A stretch of 64,000 bases of DNA from Acidobacteriota bacterium (GTDB lineage Bacteria; Acidobacteriota; UBA6911; RPQK01; JAJDTT01): positions 391,991 to 455,990 of the forward strand of contig CBDCUP010000009.1 of assembly GCA_965222655.1 (NCBI GenBank). The letters are read 5' to 3'. Below are positions 39,488 to 42,797 of this stretch, piece after piece. How positions within the stretch are numbered: position 1 is the stretch's first letter; every line of letters begins with the position of its first letter. Under the pieces are notes generated by a model. That model was not told where the DNA came from, did not search any database, and saw only the letters and a list, made by a program, of their open reading frames with translations. The translations under genes were made by a program, and so were the position numbers.

Positions 39488-39623
39488 GCCTATCGGGGCG
39501 GGTTGTCATCGGTTGCGCCGAGGCCCGGCCTCCAGCGCGGCGCTTGAATTGAGTTTTTCCGGGCGGGCCGCAGATTGGGCTGGTGGTGGATCTGATGGAG
39601 CGGCGTTGCCCGGAAGGTGGCTT

Positions 39624-40367
39624 ATGAACATAGACACCGAACTGCCTTATTGGGGGTGGCTTGACAAGGTGCATTGCGGAGACTGTTTGACGCTCATGGG
39701 AAAGATGCCCGCCGCTTCTATCGGCCTGATCGTAACGAGTCCCCCCTACAATTTGAGGAACAGCACCGGAAACGGATTGAAGGACGGGCGAGGCGGGAAG
39801 TGGCCGCGAGCCGCATTGATCCACGGCTACCACGGCCATGCTGACAACCTTCCCTCTGAGACGTACATTCAGTGGCAGCGTCATTGCCTGACGGCCATGA
39901 TGCGAGTCCTACGCGAAGACGGAGCGATTTTCTACAACCACAAGTGGCGCGTCCAAGGCGGGCTTCTCCAAGACCGGAGTGAGATCGTCGCCGGTTTTCC
40001 GGTCCGGCAAATCATCATCTGGAAACGCGATGGTGGAATCAATTTCAACCCCGGCTATTTCCTTCCCACTTACGAGGTTATCTACCTGATCGCCCAGCCC
40101 TCGTTTCGCCTTCGGGCCAAGGCGAACGCCATAGGCGATGTTTGGCACATTTCCCAAGAGAGCCGGAACCCTCACCCCGCAGCTTTCCCGGTGGAACTGG
40201 CTCAAAGGTGCATCCAAGCGACCCATGTCGAGACCGTGCTTGATCCCTTTCTAGGATCGGGCACCACGGCCATTGCCGCGCAAGCCTGTGATCGGAAGTG
40301 GATCGGGATTGACGCTTCCCCGAACTACTGTGAAATGGCGCGTCAACGGATTGCAGAGAGTCGATAG
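39624..40367 (+). CDS. Orphan beta-class DNA methyltransferase (N6-adenine or N4-cytosine)
   Basis: Motif IV SPPY before motif I DPFLGSGTT; first about 48 nt duplicate the virB4 5' end. Confidence 0.8.
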   Translation: MNIDTELPYWGWLDKVHCGDCLTLMGKMPAASIGLIVTSPPYNLRNSTGNGLKDGRGGKWPRAALIHGYHGHADNLPSETYIQWQRHCLTAMMRVLREDGAIFYNHKWRVQGGLLQDRSEIVAGFPVRQIIIWKRDGGINFNPGYFLPTYEVIYLIAQPSFRLRAKANAIGDVWHISQESRNPHPAAFPVELAQRCIQATHVETVLDPFLGSGTTAIAAQACDRKWIGIDASPNYCEMARQRIAESR

Positions 40368-40370
40368 CGT

Positions 40371-42797
40371 ATGAATATAGACACCGAACTGCAAGATTAC
40401 GAGGCGGCGGGATCGCTGGCCGAGGAACTGCCTTATTGGGGGTGGCTTGACGATGAGCGGTCCTGTCTCACGCGGGCCGGGGAGTTGATGAGCTTGGCCC
40501 GCATTTCTCCTTTTGTCCTGGACGGCCAAACGGCCCGGCAGCTAGACCGGGTGATTGACCGCTGGCAGCGGATGTTAAGCGGCCTGAACGCCCGCACCCG
40601 ATTTTACTTCTATCTCTTGAGGCGTCCCATTCGCTTCCCAGAAGTGCCGCCTAGCGGCGCGTCCAAGGTGGTGACGCTCGGCCAACGAAAGCGGCGGGAA
40701 TTTCTCACAGAGCGAGTGCAGGACGTGTCGGCCTATGTTGCATGGGCTTACGATCCGGGCCTATCCACCGTGGCATCCGTGAGGCCCGGTGGACCCTGGT
40801 GGATAACCTACGCGAAGAACTGGATGGCGAGGCGGCGGAACGCGCAGAGGTCCGTTTACCTCCATTCCTCGATAGAAGCGGCGGCGGCGGGCTTTCGGCA
40901 AACGGTCGATGCCAGCCGGGCGCTTGTGGATGACCTCACGCCCTTGCGGTTGCTCCAAGCGCACGAGGCCAGCGTGATTTTGAGCGAACTCACCAACCGG
41001 CCCGGAACGCCGTGGGACGGCGCGACCGGCAGCGGCATGAATTGGAGGTTGGCCGTCTCCGAACTCGAAGCGGAGCGGCGCAACCTTCGCCTGGACGGGG
41101 AGCCCGTTGTGCTCTACTCGCTGCTCTCTCCCCCAGGCTCGGCCCGGAGCAATCTGTTGTCCGATCTTTACCGCCTCGATGCGACCCTGACGGTCACGCT
41201 CGAATGGCGACCGCAGCGCCTTGATGCCGCCCGGCGAAAGATCCGGGGAGCGCAGCGTCATTACTTCTCAAAGCGGTACTCAATGAGCGCCCACGTGCAG
41301 GAGACGGAGGGGAGCGCCGCGGCTATGGTGGACACAGCGGCGGCGGCGGAGTCCGACCGTTTAGGGGATGCCCTGGTCGAGCTTGAGACGGACGGCGTTG
41401 CTTACGGCGACCTTGCCCTGACGATTGCGATTCACGGCCCTTTAGAGCACTCCGAGAGCCTGGACGGGGATATCCGGCGCATCTTCGCCAGCCACGACGC
41501 CAAGGTGATCCGCGAGGGATACGGCCAACTCCCCGCTTGGTTTTCGCGGATGCCAGGGCAACCCCGGAGGCGGCAGGTACGATCCGTGTTTGTCTCGGCA
41601 GGTGTGACCGCTTGCATGGCCCCGATCTTCGGTCCACCTGTGGGAACTCCCCAGAGCGGCCACTTGCGGGCCCCAGCCCTGGCAATCCTTGAGACCCAAT
41701 GGCGGACCCCTTACCACTACGATCTATTTGCTGGCGACGTGGGACATACGCTGGTGTTGGGCGCAACCGGCGCGGGCAAAAGTTTCGCGCTCAATTTCCT
41801 GTTGGTCCAAGCCCTCCAATACGATCCGCGCATCCTGATTCTCGATCTAGGCGGTTCTTACCGCTGGCTCACCCAATTCTTGGGCGGAGGATACATGGAG
41901 CTATCCCCGGCAGCGGCAGACGGTGAAGGTGTCCAGCTACGCCCCTTCTCTTTACCGGCAGGAGAGCGGACCTACCAATTCCTGACGGGTTGGATTTCCC
42001 GGCTGCTTCGCATCGGCGGATGGAACTTGAGCGGTTCCGATCCGAGCGAGATCCGCGCCCGCGTGGAAGACCTCTATGCTTTCGCGCCAGCGGAGCGGAC
42101 CCTTGGAACGCTGGTCCACTCTTTGCCCTCAAAAATGTGGCCCGCGCTGGGCCGCTGGCACGGCGACGGCGCATGGGGCCGCTACTTCGATAACCCGGCA
42201 GACGGGGACGACCTGGAATTTCAAGACTGGCAGGTGATCGACATGGCCGGCGCCGCGGAGCATGACGACTTATGCGAGGCGGCGCTGTTCTACCTTTTGG
42301 AGCGGTTGCGCCTCGCCCTGGAGAACCCCGACGAGACCGCCCGCGTCAAGCTCATGGTGGTAGACGAGGCGTGGCGCTACCTTCAAGATCCCGCCGTCCT
42401 TTCCTATCTCGCAGAGGCCGCCAAAACCTGGCGCAAGAAGAACGCGGCGCTGATCGTGGCGACTCAAAGCGCCGTGGACGTGACGGGAACGGCGGGCGCG
42501 GAGGCGTTGCTTGAATCCATGCCGACCAAGCTCTTCCTTGCCAACCCGGACCTGCCTGAGAAGGCCGCAGAAACCTTCCGGTTGAACCCCTCGGAAATGA
42601 ACACCATTCGAGGCTTGATCCCGAAGCGAGAGCTTTACTTGAGACGCCCCGACGCGGCGGGGATCTTACGCCTTGAAGTCGATCCGGCCAGCTATTGGCT
42701 TTACACCTCTTCGCCGGTGGATGCGGCGAAGCGGGCCGCAGCCGTCGAAGAACACGGTTTAGAACTGGCCCTTGAACACTTATCAAAACGGAGGTAA
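40371..42797 (+). CDS. virB4: T4SS ATPase VirB4/TrbE
   Basis: 808 aa; Walker A GATGAGKS, Walker B MVVDEAW, CagE/TrbE/VirB4 architecture. Confidence 0.9.
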   Translation: MNIDTELQDYEAAGSLAEELPYWGWLDDERSCLTRAGELMSLARISPFVLDGQTARQLDRVIDRWQRMLSGLNARTRFYFYLLRRPIRFPEVPPSGASKVVTLGQRKRREFLTERVQDVSAYVAWAYDPGLSTVASVRPGGPWWITYAKNWMARRRNAQRSVYLHSSIEAAAAGFRQTVDASRALVDDLTPLRLLQAHEASVILSELTNRPGTPWDGATGSGMNWRLAVSELEAERRNLRLDGEPVVLYSLLSPPGSARSNLLSDLYRLDATLTVTLEWRPQRLDAARRKIRGAQRHYFSKRYSMSAHVQETEGSAAAMVDTAAAAESDRLGDALVELETDGVAYGDLALTIAIHGPLEHSESLDGDIRRIFASHDAKVIREGYGQLPAWFSRMPGQPRRRQVRSVFVSAGVTACMAPIFGPPVGTPQSGHLRAPALAILETQWRTPYHYDLFAGDVGHTLVLGATGAGKSFALNFLLVQALQYDPRILILDLGGSYRWLTQFLGGGYMELSPAAADGEGVQLRPFSLPAGERTYQFLTGWISRLLRIGGWNLSGSDPSEIRARVEDLYAFAPAERTLGTLVHSLPSKMWPALGRWHGDGAWGRYFDNPADGDDLEFQDWQVIDMAGAAEHDDLCEAALFYLLERLRLALENPDETARVKLMVVDEAWRYLQDPAVLSYLAEAAKTWRKKNAALIVATQSAVDVTGTAGAEALLESMPTKLFLANPDLPEKAAETFRLNPSEMNTIRGLIPKRELYLRRPDAAGILRLEVDPASYWLYTSSPVDAAKRAAAVEEHGLELALEHLSKRR

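What the first reader, a model, noticed from the sequence alone, without database searches (positions are those of the whole stretch)
39488..40460. Orphan DNA methyltransferase inserted between virB3 and virB4, carrying a rearranged duplicate of the virB4 5' end
The MTase ORF starts ATGAACATAGACACCGAACTGCCTTATTGGGGGTGGCTTGAC. virB4 starts ATGAATATAGACACCGAACTGC...(33 nt)...CTGCCTTATTGGGGGTGGCTTGAC. The methylase has thus captured the virB4 start codon and first codons (MNIDTELPYWGWLD) as a footprint of a cassette insertion into the operon. An orphan methylase placed to be co-expressed with the mating-pore ATPase is a plausible anti-restriction device protecting transferred DNA.
Basis: seen in the sequence. 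Interest (0 to 1): 0.6.

Follow-up and report, generated by a model that had tools for sequence, protein, structure and literature searches.

The report
Methylase fused to duplicated virB4 start
A DNA methylase taken from a restriction-modification system sits inside the mating-machinery operon of an Acidobacteriota conjugative element, where it borrows a duplicated copy of the neighbouring virB4 gene's start signals and first codons; it most likely pre-methylates the element so that it survives restriction in new hosts.

Summary
The methylase ORF (39624-40367) begins with two blocks copied from virB4 (40371-42797): 22 nt with one mismatch and 27 nt exact. No such matches occur in shuffled sequence.

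- **The deletion.** The blocks abut because 39 nt (13 codons) were lost between two GAACTGC repeats. A relative, L082, still has the undeleted 81-nt copy.
- **Related elements.** In 74 of 80 related loci virB3 and virB4 are essentially adjacent. Nine elements carry the methylase, always with a virB4-derived N-terminus of a different length.
- **The original event.** About 88 nt, from the virB3 stop codon to virB4 codon 27, were duplicated around a methylase core. The 5' joint lies in W-L-D codons that both parents share.
- **Origin of the methylase.** Free-living homologues (63-79% identical) have an unrelated N-terminus and sit beside MvaI/BcnI-family restriction enzymes, often behind an IS1595 transposase. 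No such enzyme is found in the window or in any of the related conjugative-element loci.
- **Enzyme type.** The core has the SPPY motif, best matches an N4-cytosine methylase structure, and is under purifying selection (dN/dS 0.06-0.20).
- **Spacer.** The 136-nt stretch upstream (39488-39623) is the remnant of a second optional cargo gene.

The anti-restriction function is inferred, not shown. This is a new variant of a known kind.

The parts
36520..37614 (+). ArdC-type anti-restriction protein (ssDNA-binding N-domain plus zincin protease), same strand and upstream
   Evidence: Pfam PF08401 6e-34 and PF18818 2e-37. The same gene order is conserved in all methylase-carrying relatives.
38892..39191 (+). 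virB2/TrbC pilin gene
   Evidence: PF04956 7e-15.
39179..39487 (+). virB3
   Evidence: PF05101 7e-8. It is 57-98% identical to the VirB3 that lies just upstream of virB4 in the related loci.
39488..39623 (+). Remnant of orfX, a second optional cargo gene. About 50 nt of its 5' end and about 85 nt of its 3' end are kept and about 540 nt are deleted internally. Its old stop codon, TGA at 39625-39627, overlaps the methylase ATG.
   Evidence: blastn-short: 39499-39525 and 39587-39619 match the 5' and 3' ends of the intact 222-aa orfX of L003. L082 has a still shorter remnant. Intact orfX is present in L003, L036 and L022.
39612..39620 (+). Shine-Dalgarno-like GGAAGGTGG, 3 nt before the methylase ATG
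   Evidence: Read directly from the sequence. Function is inferred.
39624..39665 (+). virB4-derived 'tag': virB4 codons 1-7 and 21-27 (MNIDTEL|PYWGWLD), fused in frame to the methylase core
   Evidence: 41 of 42 nt identical to virB4 40371-40392 plus 40432-40451.
39657..39665 (+). 5' fusion joint: TGGCTTGAC (W-L-D), codons shared by VirB4 (..WGWLD|DER) and by native methylases (..WLD|KVHCGDC)
   Evidence: Alignment A1. Native N-termini are listed.
39666..40364 (+). Methylase core (KVHCGDC...AESR), a beta-class amino-methyltransferase with motif IV TSPPYN and motif I DPFLGSGTT
   Evidence: PF01555 covers 3-220 of 221 model positions at 4e-36. The best solved structure is the N4-cytosine methylase 8S9M/8S9N at 3e-31, with SPPY aligned. 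dN/dS is 0.06-0.20 among nine copies.
40365..40370 (+). 3' joint: methylase stop codon TAG plus CGT. This duplicates the virB3 stop plus short spacer (TAG CGGG ATG) that precedes virB4 in insert-free elements.
   Evidence: Junction comparison across loci.
40371..40451 (+). virB4 codons 1-27, the intact source copy of the duplicated segment
   Evidence: This segment is present in full at the start of virB4 in every related locus examined (18 insert-free loci; nine methylase-carrying loci).
40393..40431 (+). The 39 nt (QDYEAAGSLAEEL) missing from the methylase copy, bounded by GAACTGC at 40386-40392 and 40425-40431
   Evidence: L082 carries the undeleted 81-nt tag with both GAACTGC repeats.
40371..42797 (+). 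virB4 (808 aa), intact
   Evidence: PF19044 and TIGR00929 hits. Full-length matches (residues 1-808) at 66-96% identity in 80 loci.

Best explanation
The 247-aa ORF is a solitary N4-cytosine-type DNA methyltransferase. Its ancestor was the M subunit of a mobile Type IIP restriction-modification system of the MvaI/BcnI kind.

**How it got there (inferred from the sequence).** In an ancestor of this Acidobacteriota conjugative-element family, the methylase core was copied into the virB3/virB4 junction by one duplication-insertion. About 88 nt, from the virB3 stop codon through virB4 codon 27, ended up on both sides of the core.
- The 5' joint lies in W-L-D codons shared by VirB4 and the native methylase.
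- The 3' joint lies at the methylase stop codon, with GAT microhomology.
- This is the pattern expected from replicative template switching, or from illegitimate recombination between sister copies.

**What the arrangement achieves.** The native N-terminus of about 30 aa was replaced by virB4's ribosome-binding context, start codon and first 27 codons. virB4 kept an intact copy with the same stop-to-start spacing. Both genes can therefore be translated within the mating-pore operon.

**What happened later.**
- The upstream copy suffered different in-frame deletions in different lineages. In this window it lost 39 nt by slippage between GAACTGC repeats.
- In several elements the upstream copy is kept nearly identical to the resident virB4 by gene conversion or recombination.

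**Function (inferred).** Expressed together with the type IV secretion genes in the donor, the enzyme methylates CCWGG-like sites on the element before transfer. The incoming DNA then escapes MvaI/BcnI-type endonucleases in recipients. It complements the ArdC gene upstream.
For: **Shown**
- The repeat is real and not a chance match.
- 74 of 80 related loci have virB3 and virB4 adjacent. The methylase is present in 3 of the 80 and in 5 further distinct metagenomic elements, nine with the window.
- All nine have a virB4-derived N-terminus joined at (D)KVHCGDC and the same 3' joint. Tag lengths are 42 to 81 nt.
- Alignment A1 shows the chimera and the shared TGGCTnGnC joint.
- Native homologues have an unrelated N-terminus. 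In 5 of 7 contexts at least 63% identical to the window methylase they are followed by a PF15515 or annotated MvaI/BcnI-family endonuclease. That endonuclease matches R.MvaI at 1.4e-14.
- The best solved structure is the N4-cytosine methylase with an SPPY motif (PMC10406627).
- M.MvaI makes Cm4CWGG, which blocks MvaI (PMC3001055).
- No endonuclease homologue is found in the window or in the conjugative-element loci.
- dN/dS of the core is 0.06-0.20, with dS up to about 1.
- Each tag is closer to its own virB4 than to tags of other lineages: 80/81 and 70/72 against 57/72, Fisher p = 7e-5 to 0.04.
- No plus-strand terminator-like site lies between ArdC and virB4.
- The native restriction-modification system and the element-borne methylase occur in the same metagenome, ERZ25766727.
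- Plasmid-borne orphan methylases have been shown experimentally to protect conjugating plasmids (PMC11602122).

**Inferred**
- The template-switch mechanism, co-transcription, the target site, and the protective role.
Against: - No methylation, expression or conjugation data exist.
- The target sequence is guessed from the partner endonuclease of homologues that are only 63-79% identical.
- CCWGG and CCSGG are not avoided in these elements whether or not they carry the methylase (O/E about 1.0-1.1). There is therefore no independent sign of selection by such endonucleases.
- The gene is rare, found in about 4% of the species-representative loci.
- It sits in the mating-pore operon, not in a leading region where anti-restriction genes are usually found.
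- A hemimethylated incoming duplex may still be nicked by a monomeric MvaI-type enzyme.
- The true donor methylase was not found, so the junction microhomology is inferred from relatives.
Confidence: 0.65

Rival explanations
1. The methylase serves the element or its host in another way. It might regulate transfer genes epigenetically, or 'vaccinate' the host against post-segregational killing by the widespread IS1595-borne MvaI/BcnI-type restriction-modification unit. Protecting DNA during transfer would then not be its role.
For: The same restriction-modification unit is mobile and common in these communities. The core is under purifying selection. PMC11602122 notes that plasmid methylases can also affect regulation of transfer.
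Against: Placement inside the mating-pore operon next to ArdC ties its expression to transfer. Only about 4% of the elements carry it, which argues against an essential regulatory role.
Confidence: 0.15
2. The VirB4-derived N-terminal peptide is itself functional. It might dock the methylase to VirB3 or the secretion channel, or act as a signal so that the enzyme is delivered into the recipient with the DNA.
For: The fusion is always in frame, and the first 7 or so residues, MN(I/V)(D/N)xEL, are retained in most copies. Conjugative type IV secretion systems can translocate plasmid proteins (PMC8406263, abstract seen).
Against: Different lineages delete different parts of the tag: residues 8-20 in the window, the conserved LPYWGWL motif in L001 and L091, and GWL or WLD in L022 and L088. 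L090 has diverged in the second half. No common peptide beyond the first few codons is conserved. That fits selection for translation initiation better than for binding.
Confidence: 0.07
3. The methylase was captured several times independently at the same spot, with recurrent recombination at the W-L-D microhomology. This would replace the model of one capture followed by gene conversion.
For: Tags resemble the resident virB4 more than they resemble each other. The methylase-core tree disagrees with the virB4 tree.
Against: All nine copies share both joints, including the 3' joint CGA|TAGCG and a truncated C-terminus ...SR*. Their cores are closer to each other than to the native homologue tested, P0008. 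Recombination between elements explains the tree conflict more simply; the L052 tag, for example, is window-like (74/81) rather than like its own virB4 (65/81).
Confidence: 0.08
4. The arrangement is a decaying or artefactual insertion: a misassembly, or a pseudogene on its way out.
For: An orfX remnant lies next to it. L093 has a frameshifted tag and L052 has a shortened virB4.
Against: The same architecture appears in nine independent assemblies, including circular contigs. The ORF is intact with all catalytic motifs. dN/dS is 0.06-0.20.
Confidence: 0.05

Closest known systems
M.MvaI / M.BcnI-type N4-cytosine methyltransferases of Type IIP restriction-modification systems (MvaI: CC^WGG, protected by Cm4CWGG; PMC3001055)
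   Same: Homologues 63-79% identical are encoded immediately upstream of an MvaI/BcnI-family endonuclease. They share the beta-class motif order and the SPPY motif, and the best structural match is an N4-cytosine methylase.
   Different: Here there is no endonuclease partner. The native N-terminus of about 30 aa is replaced by VirB4 codons, and the gene sits inside a type IV secretion operon. Similarity to M.MvaI itself, and the target site, were not tested.
Orphan methyltransferases carried by conjugative plasmids and ICEs as anti-restriction cargo (for example pKAZ3 dcm, and the leading-region methylase YubD of F-like plasmids; PMC11602122)
   Same: A solitary methylase on a conjugative element. 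Such enzymes have been shown experimentally to reduce restriction of the incoming plasmid. YubD-type plasmid methylases are distant homologues, about 30% identical.
   Different: The location is between virB3 and virB4 in the mating-pore operon, not in the leading region. It has a chimeric N-terminus and flanking direct repeats. It is a different subfamily, derived from an MvaI/BcnI-type system.
Duplication-insertion rearrangements formed by microhomology-mediated template switching (FoSTeS/MMBIR-type events; from general knowledge)
   Same: The inserted segment is flanked by a duplication of about 88 nt of target sequence, with 3-9 nt of microhomology at both joints.
   Different: The mechanism is inferred from the joints alone. 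Here the outcome is an in-frame gene fusion that reuses an essential gene's translation start, and it has been kept for a long time (dS about 1).
Variable cargo 'hotspots' between conserved genes of ICEs (for example SXT/R391 hotspots; from general knowledge)
   Same: A defined intergenic junction in a conserved transfer operon holds alternative optional genes (orfX, the methylase, or both), polymorphic among close relatives.
   Different: The junction is only 4-8 nt long and lies between two probably translationally coupled genes. One cargo gene is fused to a duplicated piece of the downstream gene rather than bringing its own signals.

Membership tests
Beta-class N6/N4 amino-DNA methyltransferases (Pfam PF01555) | Domain match above the curated threshold over the full model | tested here: met
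   125.3 bits against a cut-off of 26.7, covering model positions 3-220 of 221.
Beta-class N6/N4 amino-DNA methyltransferases (Pfam PF01555) | Motif IV ((D/S)PPY) lies N-terminal to motif I (FxGxG, SAM binding) | tested here: met
   TSPPYN at residues 38-43 and DPFLGSGTT at residues 207-215, both aligned to the same motifs of 8S9M.
N4-cytosine-specific subgroup | SPPY rather than DPPY in motif IV, and closest similarity to characterised m4C enzymes | tested here: met
   The best PDB hits are the N4-cytosine methylase 8S9M/8S9N at 3e-31, far ahead of CcrM at 6e-17 and of M.PvuII. The SPPY active site is described in PMC10406627.
N4-cytosine-specific subgroup | Produces m4C in DNA at a defined site | not testable with these tools
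   Needs a methylome or an enzyme assay.
M subunit lineage of MvaI/BcnI-type Type IIP restriction-modification systems | Close homologues are encoded next to an MvaI/BcnI-family endonuclease | tested here: met
   L081, L083, L084, L087 (PF15515 or tblastn) and Acinetobacter pANC7974.2. The L081 endonuclease matches R.MvaI at 1.4e-14.
M subunit lineage of MvaI/BcnI-type Type IIP restriction-modification systems | Recognises CCWGG or CCSGG | not testable with these tools
   Inferred only from the partner family. The site-avoidance test was uninformative.
Orphan (solitary) methyltransferase | No cognate endonuclease gene adjacent or elsewhere in the element | tested here: met
   The flanking genes are virB3/orfX remnant and virB4. 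tblastn with the native endonuclease finds nothing in the 64-kb window or in any conjugative-element locus. The rest of the host genome could not be checked.
Anti-restriction cargo of conjugative elements | Carried on a conjugative element | tested here: met
   The window carries virB2, virB3, virB4, virB6, virB8, virB9, virB10, virB11, a coupling protein, ArdC and integrases.
Anti-restriction cargo of conjugative elements | Protects transferred DNA from restriction in the recipient | not testable with these tools
   Needs conjugation assays with and without the methylase into recipients with and without the endonuclease.
Anti-restriction cargo of conjugative elements | Encoded in the leading region and expressed early | not tested
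   oriT and the relaxase were not located. The gene lies in the mating-pore operon, which is not the usual position.
   No meaningful inverted repeats flank the gene. The flanking duplication is about 88 nt with microhomology joints, unlike transposase or integrase footprints.

The most novel reading that the evidence does not exclude
The virB4-derived direct repeat may be more than a scar. It could be a working homology 'handle', kept like the resident virB4 by gene conversion. It would let cargo at the virB3/virB4 junction be exchanged between related elements and lost without a scar, because recombination between the tag and virB4 restores the plain junction. Under this reading, tag-shortening deletions such as the 39-nt one here are selected because they stabilise the methylase. 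That would amount to a homology-based cargo-swapping system inside an essential transfer operon.
Probability: 0.2. Interest if true: 0.6.

Novelty: new variant of a known kind. Interest (0 to 1): 0.45.

Why it matters
Solitary methylases on plasmids and ICEs are a known way to evade restriction, so the likely function is not new. Three things are new.

- **Architecture.** A cargo gene was inserted into a gap only a few nucleotides long between two essential, probably translationally coupled secretion genes. It did so by duplicating the downstream gene's start region and fusing to it, and this was then maintained through long divergence (dS about 1) with concerted evolution of the repeat.
- **Visible arms race.** A restriction-modification unit travelling with an IS1595 transposase is widespread in the same communities. 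Conjugative elements, phage-like contigs and an archaeal virus each carry the matching methylase alone.
- **Mechanism of gene fusion.** It is a concrete natural example of how operons acquire genes without disrupting expression, and of microhomology-mediated gene fusion in bacteria.

The case is directly testable in Acidobacteriota, a phylum whose mobile elements are little studied.

Tried and rejected
- **Site avoidance.** O/E for CCWGG, CCSGG and control pentamers was computed in the window's secretion region, in 8 methylase-carrying loci and in 74 loci without it. There is no depletion and no difference (O/E about 1.0-1.1), so the test says nothing about the target site.
- **The long upstream ORF.** The ORF starting at 39396 (TTG, 323 aa) is not the real gene. 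The upstream part is virB3 read out of frame plus the orfX remnant.
- **orfX function.** Pfam and NCBIfam searches with orfX and with the conserved unknown ORFs (37624-38520, 45027-45947, 47633-48565) gave nothing.
- **NCBIfam on the methylase.** Only sub-threshold CcrM-like hits were found, so no name could be assigned.
- **Promoter and terminator scan.** It found nothing significant in 36000-41000. One weak promoter-like site lies inside the methylase, at chance level.
- **Transposon or integron insertion.** Considered and rejected: no inverted repeats or attC site, and the duplication is too long.
- **IS1595 unit transposing into virB4 and then decaying.** Considered and rejected as the main model: no IS remnant flanks the methylase, and such an insertion would have inactivated virB4. 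An IS1595-family insertion inside virB4 does exist in L040.
- **Searches not run.** The representative-protein search, structure prediction and fold search were not used, because sequence-level evidence was already decisive.
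Full report
**1. The observation**

The region was read directly and ORFs were listed. A 247-aa ORF runs from ATG 39624 to the stop at 40367. virB4 starts at 40371 and ends at 42797.

The repeat finder reports two shared blocks:
- 39620-39645 against 40367-40392, 26 nt with 2 mismatches. The ORF-internal part, ATGAAyATAGACACCGAACTGC, has 1 mismatch.
- A 34-nt stretch starting at 39639 against one starting at 40425, 91% identical. Its first 27 nt, GAACTGCCTTATTGGGGGTGGCTTGAC, are exact.

Each pattern occurs exactly twice in the 64-kb window even with three mismatches allowed, and never in 100 shuffles. 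In the methylase copy the two blocks overlap by GAACTGC. In virB4 that heptamer occurs twice, 39 nt apart. The methylase copy is therefore virB4 codons 1-27 minus 13 codons (QDYEAAGSLAEEL), lost between two 7-nt direct repeats.

**2. What the genes are**

Pfam gives:

| Feature | Coordinates | Hit |
|---|---|---|
| Methylase | 39624-40367 | PF01555 N6_N4_Mtase, 4e-36, full-length |
| virB3 | 39179-39487 | VirB3 |
| virB2 | 38892-39191 | TrbC/VirB2 |
| virB4 | 40371-42797 | VirB4-type ATPase |
| virB9, virB10 | downstream | VirB9, VirB10 |
| ArdC | 36520-37614 | ArdC |

Further downstream lie VirB6, VirB8, a coupling protein, VirB11, two integrases, a PolA-like gene and a Prim-Pol. The window therefore carries an integrative conjugative element. 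No plus-strand terminator-like site lies between ArdC and virB4.

**3. Relatives with and without the insert**

A scan of species-representative genomes with VirB4 returned 80 loci. They come from Acidobacteriota (Terriglobia, Bryobacterales, Vicinamibacterales) and Longimicrobiales MAGs, at 66-96% identity.

- In 74 of them virB3 and virB4 are essentially adjacent, no more than about 20-30 nt apart with nothing inserted, and in most only 4-8 nt apart (for example ...CGGAGATAGCGGGATGAAT...).
- Every VirB4 N-terminus examined contains the 13 codons that the methylase copy lacks. The deletion is therefore in the methylase copy, not an insertion in virB4.
- The methylase is present in L001, L022 and L052. 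Through the protein database and contig look-ups it was also found in L082, L088/L089, L090, L091/L092 and L093, some on circular 54-71-kb contigs.
- All show the same order: ArdC, unknown gene, small membrane protein, virB2, virB3, methylase, virB4, virB9.

**4. Anatomy of the fusion**

Every element-borne copy starts with virB4-derived codons and joins the methylase at (D)KVHCGDC. The tag length differs between elements:

| Locus | Tag length | Note |
|---|---|---|
| L082, L052, L090 | 81 nt | undeleted |
| L022, L088 | 72 nt | two different 9-nt deletions |
| L091 | 57 nt | |
| L001 | 48 nt | |
| window | 42 nt | 39-nt deletion |
| L093 | frameshifted | possibly a sequencing error |

L082 is 96% identical to the window in the methylase core. 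It carries the undeleted tag with both GAACTGC repeats, which is the expected progenitor of the window allele.

Native homologues (70-79% identical) instead begin with an unrelated N-terminus of about 30 aa that ends ...WL(D/G/N)KVHCGDC. VirB4 reads ...LPYWGWLD|DER. The fusion point therefore falls inside W-L-D codons that both parents share. Alignment A1 shows virB4 identity to the left of TGGCTTGAC and methylase identity to the right.

At the 3' end the methylase keeps its own last codons (...SR), then TAG CGN ATG. This repeats the virB3-stop/spacer/virB4-start arrangement of insert-free elements.

The original event thus placed a methylase core between two copies of an ~88-nt segment running from the virB3 stop to virB4 codon 27, with microhomology at both joints. 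I infer replicative template switching, or an equivalent illegitimate exchange between sister copies. A transposase or integrase footprint is excluded: there are no inverted repeats, and the duplication is far too long.

Small tandem duplications of the same junction in L016 and L037 show that this site is prone to such slippage.

**5. Origin of the methylase**

Contexts of native homologues:

| Locus | Content |
|---|---|
| L081, L083, L087 | IS1595 transposase, methylase, MvaI/BcnI endonuclease |
| L084 | methylase, then an MvaI/BcnI endonuclease one small ORF further on; no IS1595 transposase |
| L085, L086 (phage-like contigs) | IS1595 transposase and methylase, no endonuclease |
| Acinetobacter plasmid pANC7974.2 | methylase (63% identical) and an annotated MvaI/BcnI endonuclease |
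| Methanosarcina virus MetMV | solitary copy, 66% identical |

- The L081 endonuclease matches R.MvaI (2OA9) at 1.4e-14 and R.BcnI at 4e-6.
- The methylase's best solved relative is the N4-cytosine methylase N4CMT (8S9M/8S9N, 3e-31), with SPPY and FxGxG aligned (PMC10406627).
- M.MvaI makes Cm4CWGG, which blocks MvaI (PMC3001055).
- No endonuclease homologue exists in the window or in any conjugative-element locus.

The ICE gene is therefore an orphaned M subunit of an MvaI/BcnI-type system, probably an m4C enzyme acting at a CCWGG-like site. The site itself is inferred.

**6. Is it functional, and how old is it?**

Among the nine copies the core has no stop codons. dN/dS is 0.06-0.20, with dS from 0.13 to above 1. 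The gene is old and under purifying selection.

In five elements the tag is nearly identical to the resident virB4 5' end: 41/42, 80/81, 70/72, 69/72 and 52/57. Tags of different lineages are only about 79% identical to each other. Fisher p values range from 7e-5 to 0.04.

With a single origin this requires concerted evolution, by gene conversion or recombination. Two further points fit that:
- The methylase-core tree disagrees with the virB4 tree.
- The L052 tag is window-like (74/81) rather than like its own virB4 (65/81), which indicates exchange between elements.

Different lineages delete different parts of the tag, including the conserved LPYWGWL motif. What is kept in common is essentially the start context and the reading frame. 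This points to selection for translation initiation rather than for a peptide function.

**7. The spacer**

The stretch 39488-39623 is not methylase sequence. Its ends match the 5' and 3' ends of orfX, a ~220-aa signal-peptide protein that is intact between virB3 and virB4 (or the methylase) in L003, L036 and L022. The old orfX stop codon, TGA at 39625-39627, overlaps the methylase ATG. orfX has no family assignment. The junction is therefore a small cargo hotspot holding orfX, the methylase, both, or neither.

**8. Function**

The steps below are inferred.
- The gene is transcribed with the mating-pore genes.
- The enzyme methylates the element in the donor. The 16-kb secretion region holds 64 CCWGG and 139 CCSGG sites.
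- The transferred strand carries the marks, and the incoming element resists MvaI/BcnI-type endonucleases.

Supporting context: these endonucleases are carried by a mobile unit present in the same metagenome. Plasmid-borne orphan methylases protect conjugating plasmids experimentally (PMC11602122).

Weaknesses: there is no site avoidance signal, carriage is rare, the position is outside a leading region, and it is uncertain how monomeric MvaI-type enzymes treat hemimethylated sites.

**9. Verdict**

The function belongs to a known kind, a solitary methylase as anti-restriction cargo. The architecture is a new variant: a duplication-insertion that fuses cargo to the start of an essential secretion gene, with later in-frame decay and concerted evolution of the repeat. 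Interest is moderate.

Noticed in passing
window 39488-39623; L003 5336-6001; L036 ~5330-5965; L022 ~5336-6002; L082 5956-6000: orfX is a ~220-aa signal-peptide protein with no Pfam or NCBIfam match. It is a second optional cargo gene at the same virB3/virB4 junction. It is intact in three relatives and reduced to remnants of 136 nt (window) and 45 nt (L082).
   Followed up: partly
L016 ~5975-6005; L037 ~5880-5995: Small tandem duplications of the virB3-stop/virB4-start junction (L016) and of the virB3 3' end (L037). They suggest the junction is prone to slippage or duplication.
   Followed up: no
L040 ~6273-7262: An IS1595-family transposase (30% identical to the one next to the native restriction-modification unit) is inserted inside virB4.
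   Followed up: no
L052 6787-7077: The virB4 downstream of the methylase in L052 lacks about 23 residues right after codon 27. It may be a damaged copy.
   Followed up: no
L081 5063-7451; L083 3102-5520; L085-L087; L094 (pANC7974.2); L095 (virus MetMV): The native methylase plus MvaI/BcnI endonuclease pair usually sits directly behind an IS1595-family transposase with overlapping stop and start codons, which suggests a transposon-borne restriction-modification unit. The methylase alone also occurs on phage-like contigs and in an archaeal virus (66% identical).
   Followed up: partly
loci L009, L012, L013, L019, L031, L035 (one contig, CBDCKA010000002.1); L047-L051, L054, L065, L066 (CBDHFM01): This conjugative-element family is present in many copies per genome: six loci on one 3-Mb contig, and eight or more in one Vicinamibacterales MAG. 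It also occurs on circular 54-71-kb contigs.
   Followed up: no
window 7258-9720: A DruA-like ORF (Druantia defence protein, PF14236, 1e-41) at 8818-9720, next to an unassigned 518-aa ORF. This may be a fragment of a defence system.
   Followed up: no
window 3872-5341, 14134-15318, 26843-27577, 28330-29787, 31705-32355: Several transposases lie left of the conjugative module (IS66, a full and a truncated Mutator-family copy, DDE_Tnp_1_4, DDE_3), with two ankyrin-repeat proteins among them (30051-31175, 32722-33552).
   Followed up: no
window 52793-60109: Two tyrosine integrases (52793-53902, 54019-55092), followed by a PolA-like gene (55911-57740) and a Prim-Pol gene (58463-60109). This is probably the integration and replication module of the element.
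   Followed up: no
L093 1305-1350: The tag of the L093 methylase has a 1-nt indel that breaks the virB4-derived reading frame. It is either a nanopore assembly error or an inactivated or re-started allele.
   Followed up: no
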